Shown in pieces: positions 31,901 through 34,900 of a DNA stretch of 64,000 nt (the first letter of the stretch is position 1; each line of letters begins with the position of its first letter). Location of the stretch: assembly GCA_037444405.1 (NCBI GenBank), contig JBBIML010000016.1, forward strand, positions 1-64,000, read 5' to 3'. Source of the DNA: Armatimonadota bacterium (GTDB lineage Bacteria; Armatimonadota; Fimbriimonadia; Fimbriimonadales; GBS-DC). A program made the position numbers.

Positions 31901-34900
31901 ACAGCATGAAGGTGGAGATGCCCGCCACCACGCAGTTTCTGTTTGCGGCGAGCGATTTCCTCGTGAGCTACTGGTGGGCGCTGGCAGGCGCTATCATTGG
32001 TGGTCTGCTGGTGTTGCGTCGCTACATCCGCACGCCCAAAGGACGCTATCAGTACGACTACTTCAAGCTGAAGATGCCGATTTTGGGCGATCTGGTGCTG
32101 AAGTTGGCGGTGGCGCGTTTCGCCCGCACCTTCGGCACGCTGGTCGCCAGTGGCGTGCCGCTGATGCGCACGCTGGAGATTGTCGGCGAGACCTCCGGCA
32201 ACGCGGTGCTGGCTGCCGCCATCGAGGGCACGCGCTCCAGCATCCGCGAGGGTCAGCCGCTCAGCACGCCATTCGCCGCCACCGGGCTGTTCCCGCCGAT
32301 GGTCATCCACATGATGGACATCGGCGAGGAATCGGGTCGCCTCTCCGAGATGATGGTGCGCATCGCCGACTTCTATGAGCAGGAGGTGGACGCCGCCATC
32401 AAGGGGCTGACCTCGATGATCGAACCGATGCTGATTGTGTTTCTGGGCGGCATCGTCGGCTTCATCGCCATCTCCATCATGATGCCGATGTTCAAACTGG
32501 TCAGCGCGATTCAATAATCAACCCTCTCCCCCACAGGGGGCGAGGGCGGCTGGAACCCCCTCTCCCGCAGTGTGGGAGAGGGAGCGCGGGGGTGAGGGCA
32601 ACCTCATCCGAAACCACGGAGGCTTGTTGGCTCAGGAGGAGCGAACATGAAGAAGTACGACACAGAAGAGCTGGTGCAGGAATATTGCCGCACGCGCGAC
32701 CTAAATGTGCGCGACATGATCACCATCCAGCTATCAGGTCTGGTCGAGAGCATCGCCCGCAAATTTATCGGCTCTGGCGAACCCATCGAAGACCTGATCC
32801 AGGAGGGCTATCTCGGCTTGCTCAACGCGCTCGATTTGTACGATCCGGGCAAGGGCGTGAAGTTCACCACCTACGCGACGCACCTCATCATCGGACAGAT
32901 CAAACACTACCTGCGCGACAAGGGCAAAATCATCAAGGAACCCGCCTGGCTGCAGGAACTCAACTCCAAAATCAACCGTGTGATTAATGAACTCACAGCT
33001 CAGCTGGGTCAGCCGCCTACCATCCAGCAGATTGCCGACTTTCTGGGCATGACGCCCAAAGCCGTCGAGGAGGTGCTGCTCACCCGTGAGGTGTTCAAGG
33101 TCAGCTCCCTCGATGCGATCGAAGATGATGAAGACGAGGACAGCTACGGCTATGACCTGGAGAAGCTGCCCGTCGAATCGATTCACGGGTTCAACCTGCC
33201 AATAGAGGAGCGCCTCGTGGTGGAGAGCGCGATGCAGCGCCTCAAGCAGATCGAACAGCAGGTTCTGCACCTGTTCTTCAATGAGGGCTACAACCAGACC
33301 GAGATCGCCCATCGGCTGGGCATCTCCTGCAACTATGTGTCGCACATTCTGCGCAACGCGACGCAGAAGCTGCGCCGTATCATCAGCGAAGAGGAGTGGA
33401 TTGACCAGCAGCGGATGCGGGCGCGAGCGGAGGCGCGCGGCGAGTTCGAAGCGCGCATCCTGGACCCGCAAACGGGGATGTATTCCGCGGACTATCTGCA
33501 GGTGCGCCTGCGTGAGGAGCTGCAGCGCTCCGCCCGCTATCAGAACGCCGTCGGGTTCGCCATCTTCGAGTTCGTGTGCGATCGGCAGCTGCTCCACACG
33601 CTGGGCGAACTGGCGATTGGCGAGCTGCTGCTGCAGGCGTCGGCGATTGTGCGGCAGGTGGTGCGCAAAGCGGACATCATCGGGCGCTACGGTCAGGCGA
33701 TGCTGGGCGTGCTGTTGCCCTATGCCGGCGAACACACCCCTGCCGTCGCCGAGCGCGTGTACGAAGCCCTGCAGGAGTGGCTGCAGACCTGCTTCACCGC
33801 GAATCTCGCGGCACGGTTCACCGTGCGCTACGGCTGGGCTTACTACCCGGATGAAGGCAGCGATTGTGAGGCGATTCTGACCCTCGCCGAGCAACGCCTG
33901 AGCATCGACCGCACCCAGCAATCCAACGCCGCATAGGAGCGCATACCAGCAGGAAATACCCGCCAAATCCCGTATCTTTACAGGGCGACCAGTCGTCCAA
34001 AAGCGTGTATCATGAACAGGATATGGACTGCTGAAGCGCGGCTTCAGCAGTCTAAAAAAGCACCGGCATGGAGGCGAAGGGGTGGACTCGCGGGCACTGA
34101 GGGTGGTGGAAGGGCTGTTGCCCTTCTCTGGCAAAGGAGTGAACCACCGTGCGATGCCGCGCCCAGCGCGCGAGCTGCTTATGCGCACAATCGCTCATCT
34201 CATCAAACCAGCACGGGTCTGGGTCAACCCCGATCACACGGTGGAGACCGCCCTGATCCTGCTGCGTGGACACGGACTGAGCGGGCTGCCAGTGATTGAA
34301 GGCGGCGAGATTCGCGGCATGCTCGAACTGCAGCAGCTGCTCGGCGCCCCGCCCGATCAGCCCGTGAAGACCCTCATGCAGACCGACATCCCCGTACTTT
34401 CACCAGCAACACCGCTCAAAACCGCCGCCGAATGGTTTAACCAGCACCGCCAGACCACCCTGCCCGTAGCGCAGGAAGGGCAACTGATAGGGCTGCTCAC
34501 CGTGTACGACCTCCTGCCCGAAATCGGGCGCAGCCACGACCCGATGACCGGGCTGCCATGGTCCGACTTCCTGCGCGAATGGAGCATCGAACAGCTCGCA
34601 CAGGGACGCGAAATCAGCATTATCTTCTTTGATCTGGATAACTTCGGCATGTTCAACAAGCGGTACGGGCATCTGGTGGGCGATGAGGTGTTGCGTCGGG
34701 TGGCGCAGGTGCTGCAGGCGGAGACCGACCCTGAAACGGAGGTGGTGTGCCGCTGGGGTGGCGACGAGTTCGCGATAGCCACGCTGCGCCGTCGCGAGGA
34801 AGCAGGCTTGCTGGCGCACCATATCAGCCGTCAGATCACCGCCATCGAGTTGCCCGATGTGGACACGCCCATCACCGCCTCCTACGGCTATCAGGGTGGC

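What a model noticed while it worked through the whole genome (the two positions that open the first line are those of the whole stretch)
32647..33936. Sigma factor fused to a degenerate GGDEF domain with an invariant c-di-GMP I-site (RxxD)
g01634 is a SigB/F-type group-3 sigma factor (regions 2-4) with a C-terminal GGDEF domain that has lost the catalytic motif but keeps the RxxD c-di-GMP binding I-site. It is single-copy and widespread in Armatimonadota and sits behind pilT-pilC, so it is a candidate sigma factor controlled directly by c-di-GMP.
Evidence so far: Pfam Sigma70_r2/r3/r4 at 30-243 and GGDEF at 272-427, E 1e-16. In 121 aligned homologues RxxD is kept in 118 and GG[DE]EF in 0; R340, D343, R347 invariant in the 85 distant ones. 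Full-length fusion in 22 of 24 order genomes; the sigma4-GGDEF junction matches in 28 of 46 phylum genomes, one copy each. T2SSF-Sigma70_r2 neighbourhood in 142 of 227 order genomes. The four other GGDEF proteins of the genome have intact active sites. No paper found.
(Added by a program. Inside this text positions count along the whole contig: contig position 1 is position 1 of the stretch shown here. "Call 12" and the like, gene names such as g00115 and contig names such as C1 are that model's own, and its searches are not shown. The text may have been shortened before it was handed on; [...] marks where a part breaks off. The agent that wrote the report below was given it as the finding of a first reader that could run no searches.)

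Follow-up and report, generated by a model that had tools for sequence, protein, structure and literature searches.

The report
Pilin sigma factor sensing c-di-GMP
This gene joins a complete RNA-polymerase sigma factor to a dead cyclase domain that keeps its pocket for the messenger c-di-GMP; it is widespread in one bacterial phylum, and a matching promoter signal in front of pilin and c-di-GMP genes suggests what it switches, though nothing has been measured.

Summary
Confirmed. Window 32647-33936 encodes a full SigB/F/G-family sigma factor joined by one long helix to a GGDEF domain. Its catalytic residues are randomised, while the whole PleD-type I-site (R294, R340, D343, R370) is kept (all four in 64 of 78 divergent fusions; 25 of 60 active cyclases). 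RxxD alone is weak evidence: 56 of 60 active cyclases have it. The fusion is in 29 of 33 other order genomes and in more than half of 301 phylum genomes. None of 13 cyclase-less genomes keeps it. No stand-alone RsbW was found in four fusion-only genomes. New here: a SigB-like promoter (TGTGAAA-13/14-RTGGAANA) before major pilins and a conserved LuxR gene tracks the fusion (held-out test 11 of 22 versus 0 of 7). In this genome it precedes pilins, two cyclases and PilZ genes. The pilT-pilC-sigma operon itself has a sigma-28-type promoter. Best reading: a one-component, c-di-GMP-gated sigma below sigma-28 that controls pilin and c-di-GMP genes. Binding, sign of control and promoter use are inferred. 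The scan noted this fusion before in at least eight reports on other genomes; no paper was found.

The parts
32647..33936 (+). Sigma-GGDEF fusion gene, 429 aa
32734..32928 (+). Sigma region 2 (residues 30-94): core-binding and -10 recognition segment, SigB/F/G type
   Evidence: Pfam PF04542 E 7.7e-19; invariant columns D49, G54, G57, F73, T75, G83, H87, R90, D91
32956..33138 (+). Sigma region 3 (residues 104-164)
   Evidence: Pfam PF04539
33229..33375 (+). Sigma region 4 (residues 195-243) with family-specific recognition helix ISCNYVSHIL (226-235); the canonical SigB paralogues have ISQMHVSRL
33376..33459 (+). Linker; in the models the recognition helix runs on unbroken to residue 263, towards the GGDEF domain
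   Evidence: AlphaFold helix 228-263; region 186-429 pLDDT 94, pTM 0.79
33460..33927 (+). Degenerate GGDEF domain (residues 272-427)
   Evidence: Pfam; PleD 2wb4 Z 18.8, rmsd 2.2 A over 155 residues
33526..33528 (+). R294, equivalent of PleD R313 (I-site residue given by the partner protomer)
   Evidence: 118 of 120; 77 of 83; 32 of 60 active cyclases; numbering from PMC12943098 passages
33664..33675 (+). R340-x-x-D343, primary I-site
33691..33705 (+). Dead A-site, GQAML in place of GG[DE]EF
   Evidence: 0 of 83 fusions with GG[DE]EF
33754..33756 (+). R370, equivalent of PleD R390
   Evidence: 118 of 120; 72 of 79 covered
30115..31293 (+). pilT, first gene of the probable operon
   Evidence: TIGR01420 496 bits
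31306..32517 (+). pilC
   Evidence: PF00482 twice; directly upstream of the fusion in 41 of 80 loci
29994..30021 (+). Sigma-28-type promoter (TAAAG-N15-GCCAAAAT) before pilT-pilC-sigma
   Evidence: a like site in 15 loci of close relatives; same layout as this genome's flagellin promoter
19804..19832 (-). Candidate promoter of the fusion sigma (TGAGAGA-N13-ATGGAATAA), 20 bases before a diguanylate cyclase gene
   Evidence: 16.4 bits with the pilin-trained matrix; a middling site
18377..19783 (-). REC-PAS-GGDEF diguanylate cyclase with intact GGEEF, candidate target

Best explanation
A one-component, c-di-GMP-gated alternative sigma factor. Shown: intact SigB/F/G-family sigma domains; a GGDEF fold with dead active site and complete I-site; co-loss with cyclases. 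Inferred: c-di-GMP binds the I-site and cross-links two molecules as in PleD (R340/D343/R370 of one, R294 of the other). Because the -35 recognition helix is continuous with the linker, this changes the sigma's access to RNA polymerase or DNA; the built-in sensor takes the place of the RsbW anti-sigma. The gene is transcribed from a sigma-28 promoter with pilT-pilC, and its product reads TGTGAAA (or TCTCAAA)-N13/14-RTGGAANA promoters before pilins, a small LuxR-type regulator, PilZ proteins and cyclases. On the sign I lean to inhibition by the c-di-GMP-bound dimer (about 0.5, against about 0.35 for activation), which would give negative feedback through the cyclases it transcribes.
For: Catalytic positions equal to PleD D327, K332, N335, D344 are 57-60 of 60 invariant in active cyclases but variable in fusions; all four I-site residues in 64 of 78 fusions versus 25 of 60 cyclases. 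Predicted dimer of residues 186-429 with four c-di-GMP: score 0.69, best control 0.00; the mark was reached by 20 of 30 solved pairs and 1 of 23 single chains; contact agreement at least 39%, pLDDT at least 77; interface joins residues 290-298 to 340-344 and 358-359; like complexes are solved, so the pass may be from memory. 0 of 46 fusion genomes versus 13 of 34 others lack a strong GGDEF hit, across eight families. No stand-alone RsbW in G000, G138, G105, G022; G047 has one next to canonical SigB. Promoter: pilin-trained matrix on held-out LuxR upstream regions 11 of 22 versus 0 of 7; LuxR-trained matrix on pilin loci 13 of 22 versus 1 of 8 at 14 bits; the -10 box sits where family f30 has a sigma-28 -10 box, the same distance from a conserved leader; G000 has 9 sites at 20 bits or more versus 0, 1, 0, 3 in controls; it resembles the SigB consensus GTTTAA-N15-GGGTAT (PMC9847131), and the fusion is the only SigB-type sigma in G000.
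Against: No binding, transcription or expression data. RxxD is common in active cyclases (56 of 60). 8 of 81 divergent fusions have lost RxxD, and family f33 keeps the orthologous sigma without any GGDEF domain. 21 of 67 cyclase-bearing genomes lack the fusion. The motif is missing at the LuxR and pilin genes of all three f30 fusion genomes tested and at the LuxR gene of G026. On DUF5658 genes it is in 5 of 22 versus 0 of 7, not significant. At 12 bits the LuxR-trained test gives 14 of 22 versus 2 of 8, p 0.07. Raw pattern counts over whole genomes do not separate the groups, and many hits are inside genes. The 80 genomes were hand-picked and are related, so p-values overstate. The full-length model shows no fixed sigma-to-GGDEF packing (pTM 0.45). 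The sign is not constrained: the motif lies in sense before some flagellins and antisense over others.
Confidence: 0.6

Rival explanations
1. The GGDEF domain is a ligand-independent dimerisation or protein-binding module (for example for a cyclase or phosphodiesterase partner); the I-site residues are kept for structure.
For: A GGDEF domain of Streptomyces RmdB binds sigma-WhiG directly (PMC13232838, passages). D343 and R347 are near-invariant in all GGDEF domains. Co-loss with cyclases would also follow if the partner were a cyclase.
Against: R294, R340 and R370 are surface arginines that make the c-di-GMP pocket in PleD and are kept together more often than in active cyclases (64 of 78 versus 25 of 60). 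RxxD survives even in the most eroded domains of family f6.
Confidence: 0.15
2. It binds c-di-GMP, but the result is PopA-like: localisation or hand-over to a protease, so the messenger sets the amount of sigma rather than its activity.
For: PopA uses a degenerate GGDEF I-site this way (recalled). A 21-bit candidate site precedes clpX in G000.
Against: No adaptor or protease gene is a conserved neighbour in 80 loci. The rigid helix from the recognition helix to the GGDEF domain favours a direct steric effect.
Confidence: 0.12
3. The sensor reading is right, but the TGTGAAA..RTGGAA motif is read by another factor (another sigma, or a repressor binding two similar half-sites), so the regulon is still unknown.
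For: The two boxes look like a loose direct repeat 19-20 bases apart. The -10 resembles the SigH -10 (recalled). Fusion loss goes with loss of other genes, so co-occurrence is confounded. f30 has the fusion without the motif.
Against: G192 (one contig, strong sites) has no SigH-like gene, and motif-less genomes do. RpoD-like sigmas number three in motif-positive and motif-less sisters alike. The LuxR protein and canonical SigB occur in motif-less genomes. FliA occurs in fusion-less genomes whose flagellins have the sigma-28 motif instead. The f30 fusions have a changed recognition helix.
Confidence: 0.22
4. The GGDEF domain is a relic of a fused cyclase with no present role.
For: Lost in f33; eroded in f6 and in second copies in f19.
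Against: Kept at about 35% identity across most families of the phylum with selective conservation of four ligand residues; absent from all 13 cyclase-less genomes.
Confidence: 0.03

Closest known systems
RsiG-(c-di-GMP)2-WhiG switch of Streptomyces and Rubrobacter (PMC8325347: abstract and section 14 read)
   Same: c-di-GMP controls an alternative sigma factor; in Rubrobacter the predicted targets are type IV pilus genes and DGC/PDE genes, the same target logic as found here.
   Different: There the receptor is a separate anti-sigma with a coiled-coil motif and the sigma is of the flagellar clade. Here the receptor is a GGDEF I-site in the same chain, the sigma is SigB/F/G-type, and it sits downstream of a sigma-28 promoter.
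Degenerate-GGDEF c-di-GMP receptors with intact I-site (class named in PMC10118264, passages; PopA, PelD, SgmT recalled)
   Same: Dead A-site, kept I-site, GGDEF fold.
   Different: The output domain is a sigma factor; none of the recalled members is a transcription initiation factor.
PleD/WspR product inhibition by I-site cross-linking (PMC12943098, passages)
   Same: Four-residue site R313/R359/D362/R390 maps to R294/R340/D343/R370; predicted dimer has this geometry.
   Different: No enzyme activity to inhibit; cross-linking would act on the attached sigma.
SigB of Bacillales with RsbW/RsbV (PMC9847131, passages)
   Same: Sigma family and promoter layout (GTTTAA-N15-GGGTAT against GTGAAA-N14/15-TGGAAT).
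   Different: Separate clade from the canonical SigB paralogues of the phylum, own recognition helix, no RsbW partner found, targets are pilins rather than general stress genes.
RmdB GGDEF binding to sigma-WhiG (PMC13232838, passages)
   Same: A GGDEF domain touches a sigma factor.
   Different: In trans, from an active phosphodiesterase, acting against an anti-sigma.
ECF sigma factors with fused C-terminal regulatory domains such as ECF41 and ECF42 (recalled)
   Same: Sigma with a built-in regulatory domain in place of an anti-sigma.
   Different: Group 4 sigmas with SnoaL or TPR extensions; no second-messenger site.

Membership tests
SigB/SigF/SigG-family (group 3) sigma-70 factor | Regions 2, 3 and 4 present, no region 1.1 | tested here: met
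   best solved relatives are SigB and SigF structures
SigB/SigF/SigG-family (group 3) sigma-70 factor | Reaches the TIGR02980 cut-off | tested here: not met
   173 bits against 234; a divergent clade
SigB/SigF/SigG-family (group 3) sigma-70 factor | Directs core RNA polymerase to promoters | not testable with these tools
   inferred from conserved regions and a co-distributed promoter-like motif
Canonical SigB (RsbW-controlled) | Groups with SigB, helix SQMHVSR, rsbW next to it | tested here: not met
   separate clade of 125 rows, SH-aLRT 98, holding all 96 fusions; no stand-alone RsbW in four fusion-only genomes
Diguanylate cyclase | GG[DE]EF and metal/GTP residues D327, K332, N335, D344 of PleD | tested here: not met
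Degenerate-GGDEF c-di-GMP receptor | GGDEF fold | tested here: met
Degenerate-GGDEF c-di-GMP receptor | Dead A-site with intact I-site (RxxD plus distal arginines) | tested here: met
Degenerate-GGDEF c-di-GMP receptor | Measured c-di-GMP binding | not testable with these tools
   the complex prediction scores only the protein dimer
RsiG-WhiG switch | Flagellar-clade sigma | tested here: not met
   TIGR02479 108 bits against 190; FliA is a separate gene, C20:30890
RsiG-WhiG switch | Separate RsiG anti-sigma with the E(X)3S(X)2R(X)3Q(X)3D motif | not tested
   no search for RsiG was run

The most novel reading that the evidence does not exclude
A sigma factor that reads c-di-GMP itself and heads a phylum-wide pilus-versus-flagellum switch: made from a sigma-28 promoter, it transcribes pilins, PilZ effectors and cyclases (a feedback loop), and in one family it binds on the opposite strand across the sigma-28 promoter of a flagellin gene to shut it, so one protein is sensor, initiation factor and repressor.
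Probability: 0.3. Interest if true: 0.9.

Novelty: new variant of a known kind. Interest (0 to 1): 0.76.

Why it matters
Known control of sigma factors by c-di-GMP goes through a separate anti-sigma. A sigma that carries its own second-messenger receptor would be the shortest path from messenger to promoter choice, and it appears old and widespread in a little-studied phylum. The candidate promoter makes it directly testable with one purified protein, core polymerase and a short DNA, and could give a c-di-GMP-switchable orthogonal sigma for synthetic circuits.

Tried and rejected
1) The conserved CTAAAG-N15-GGCAATAAT site before stand-alone fusion genes (23 of 33 regions) first looked like autoregulation. 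Rejected: it has the layout of the flagellin promoter of this genome and of fusion-less genomes G211, G041, G064, G101, and I did not see it before fusion or pil genes in the regions taken from FliA-less genomes (operon starts not mapped), so it is sigma-28's. 2) Blind enumeration of two-box motifs in 1277 upstream regions of G000 found the SigH-type and housekeeping promoters and repeats, not the fusion motif. 3) Whole-genome pattern counts did not separate fusion from non-fusion genomes. 4) SigH, RpoD-like sigmas, canonical SigB and the LuxR protein as readers of the motif: distributions do not match. 5) The CBS-GGDEF gene downstream as a partner: next to the fusion in 1 of 80 loci. 6) Intramolecular sigma-GGDEF packing: not seen in the full-length model. 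7) Expression: no RNA holder listed. 8) Taxa of divergent fusions: 10 looked up, none carried an organism name, so restriction to Armatimonadota rests on named records only. 9) Literature: nine searches found no description of the fusion; the library lacks most subscription papers, and no supplements were read (the sigma-factor tables of PMC4072686 could list such a gene).

Full report
Observation. The ORF at 32647-33936 (+) encodes 429 residues. Pfam gives sigma regions 2, 3 and 4 at 30-243 and a GGDEF domain at 272-427. The best NCBIfam model is SigB/F/G, below its cut-off. pilT and pilC lie directly upstream. A model of residues 186-429 (pLDDT 94) matches PleD at Z 18.8, rmsd 2.2 A over 155 residues. 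In it the sigma-4 recognition helix runs on without a break to residue 263. The full-length model shows no fixed packing between sigma and GGDEF (pTM 0.45).

The GGDEF domain. PMC12943098 (passages) lists the PleD I-site as R359, D362, R390 plus R313 from the partner, and the catalytic residues as D327, K332, N335, D344 and GG(D/E)EF. By spacing from the A-site these map to R340, D343, R370 and R294; this mapping is by sequence spacing, not a printed residue alignment. Among 120 proteins from a word-seeded search the four are kept in 118-119. Among 83 fusions from an index-free search, RxxD is in 73 of 81 covered, all four in 64 of 78, and GG[DE]EF in none. As a control I read 60 active GGDEF domains from 10 genomes of the phylum (the best-scoring 60 of 165 listed). 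Their catalytic positions are 57-60 of 60 invariant, RxxD is in 56, R294 in 32 and all four in 25. So RxxD alone proves little; the loss of the catalytic set with retention of the whole I-site is the signal. A prediction of two copies of residues 186-429 with four c-di-GMP scored 0.69 against a best control of 0.00. That mark was reached by 20 of 30 solved pairs and 1 of 23 single chains; contact agreement was at least 39% and pLDDT at least 77. The interface joins 290-298 to 340-344 and 358-359. Like complexes are solved, so this may be likeness from memory, and the ligand was not scored.

Distribution. Of 301 phylum genomes, 267 match the profile at E 1e-40 or better, but the weaker matches are canonical SigB paralogues. 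The 150 best matches lie in 150 genomes and 148 span the profile; 19 more genomes have E 1e-100 or better by my hand count; 29 of 33 other order genomes have it. Family f6 has an eroded GGDEF that mostly keeps RxxD, and f33 has the sigma alone. In a quick tree of 177 sigma domains all 96 fusions fall in one clade of 125 rows (SH-aLRT 98), apart from canonical SigB, with f33 nested inside, which reads as a loss. pilC is directly upstream in 41 of 80 loci; the longer loci show pilO, a pilP-like gene, pilQ, pilB, pilT, pilC, sigma. In 80 genomes that I picked by family and fusion status, all 46 with the fusion have at least two strong GGDEF hits, while 13 of 34 without it have none, in eight families. 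Against this, 21 cyclase-bearing genomes lack it. 17 of the 46 lack flagellin and 9 lack FliA. Four fusion-only genomes gave no stand-alone RsbW; G047 has one beside canonical SigB.

What drives it. Stand-alone fusion genes have CTAAAG-N15-GGCAATAAT upstream (23 of 33 regions). The window has TAAAG-N15-GCCAAAAT at 29994-30021 before pilT, with a like site in 15 related loci. This matches the flagellar consensus quoted in PMC8325347 (section 14), the flagellin promoter of this genome, and flagellin promoters of fusion-less genomes. I read it as sigma-28 input.

What it drives. Upstream of major pilin genes of fusion genomes I saw by eye TGTGAAA-N13/14-RTGGAANA; fusion-less genomes mostly showed housekeeping-type boxes. 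A matrix from 13 sites of other genomes finds 9 sites of 20 bits or more in G000, against 0 for the reversed matrix and 1, 0, 3 for column shuffles. Targets at 15 bits or more include the major pilin, a pilin-like operon, an 85-residue LuxR-type gene, HDOD, PilZ, REC-PilZ, a PAS hybrid kinase, DUF5658, clpX and the window's cyclase at 18377-19783; a second cyclase scores 18.6 with the refined matrix. Held-out test on the LuxR orthologues: 11 of 22 fusion genomes versus 0 of 7 at 12 bits, p 0.02. The -10 box alone, with a pattern adjusted after seeing these regions, is in 20 of 23 versus 1 of 7. Further regions: present in G174; absent in G026, G040 (window probably misplaced) and G187 (not an orthologue); absent in fusion-less G012, G047, G073; present before pilins of G163 and G049 but not of their fusion-less sisters G099 and G062. 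The reverse test, LuxR-trained on pilin loci, gives 13 of 22 versus 1 of 8 at 14 bits and 14 of 22 versus 2 of 8 at 12 bits. DUF5658 gives 5 of 22 versus 0 of 7, not significant. Before flagellins, 5 of 40 regions of fusion genomes have it in sense and 5 in antisense, against 0 of 13 others. The antisense sites are in four genera of family f2; in one flagellin of each they overlap a sigma-28-like promoter, and the two upstream neighbours I read differ. The three f30 genomes lack the motif and use a sigma-28 box at the same distance from the conserved LuxR leader, which marks RTGGAANA as a -10 element; their fusion has a changed recognition helix. The motif resembles the SigB consensus in PMC9847131 (passages), and the fusion is the only SigB-type sigma in G000. 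SigH, RpoD-like sigmas, canonical SigB and the LuxR protein do not track it. Whole-genome pattern counts were not discriminating, and related genomes make all p-values optimistic.

Mechanism. Shown: anatomy, selective conservation, co-loss, neighbourhood, and a promoter-like motif that follows the gene. Inferred: c-di-GMP binding (about 0.8), direct control of the sigma (about 0.7), and the regulon (about 0.7). I lean to inhibition by the ligand-linked dimer, by analogy with PleD and RsiG-WhiG and because GGDEF-less orthologues persist, but activation is nearly as open.

Known systems. It works like a fusion of two known things: a degenerate-GGDEF receptor and the c-di-GMP-controlled WhiG of Rubrobacter, whose predicted targets are also pil and DGC/PDE genes. 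It is not a cyclase, not canonical SigB and not WhiG. PMC13232838 (passages) shows a GGDEF domain binding WhiG in trans, which supports the protein-module rival. Nine paper searches found no description of the fusion; passages of PMC4072686, PMC9239204 and PMC10118264 did not mention it; supplements were not read. PopA, PelD, SgmT, ECF41/42 and the SigH consensus are recalled. Eight earlier notes of this scan report the same fusion in other genomes; they are not independent evidence, and a word search for a promoter or regulon note found none.

Verdict. Real, conserved and apparently undescribed; a new variant that joins known parts into a direct messenger-to-sigma link, now with a concrete promoter to test. 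Interest 0.76.

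Noticed in passing
window 33951-33975 (+): SigH-type promoter variant (AGGA-N16-CGTAT) between the fusion and the CBS-CBS-GGDEF gene at 34082-35443, so that cyclase has its own promoter; this cyclase lacks an I-site.
   Followed up: partly
   Followed up: partly
L098, L102, L104, L117, L121, L123, L127, L128, L129, L136, just before the sigma start: A conserved element like GTACGATGGGAACGAAGGCG in the 5' leader of stand-alone fusion genes; possible RNA-level control.
   Followed up: no
L277, L283, L296, L300 (family f2 flagellin promoters): Fusion-type promoter on the opposite strand, nested in a sigma-28-like flagellin promoter, 16-25 bits.
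   Followed up: partly
G000:C11:3270-3527 (L270): 85-residue stand-alone GerE/LuxR HTH protein found in 37 of 80 genomes, with a conserved GGCGGC leader element; probable next tier of the cascade.
   Followed up: partly
G000:C14:7390-9084 (L057): Of four PilB-like ATPases with an MshEN domain, only this one shows the RLG..L motif, twice.
   Followed up: no
L400 161-190 (prkA leader, G000:C10): A 13.7-bit match to the candidate fusion promoter lies in the long prkA leader.
   Followed up: partly
window 32520-32600: Hairpin-like CCCTCTCCC...GGGAGAGGG repeat element between pilC and the sigma gene; the same family is abundant in intergenic DNA.
   Followed up: no
window 24321-26426: ORFs that look like an RHS-core protein with a downstream small gene and a PIN-type toxin-antitoxin pair, judged by eye; no family search run.
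   Followed up: no
P0199, P0217, P0218 and others: A sister clade of 23 stand-alone sigmas without GGDEF; one cluster is named Actinomycetota. A possible source of the fused sigma.
   Followed up: partly
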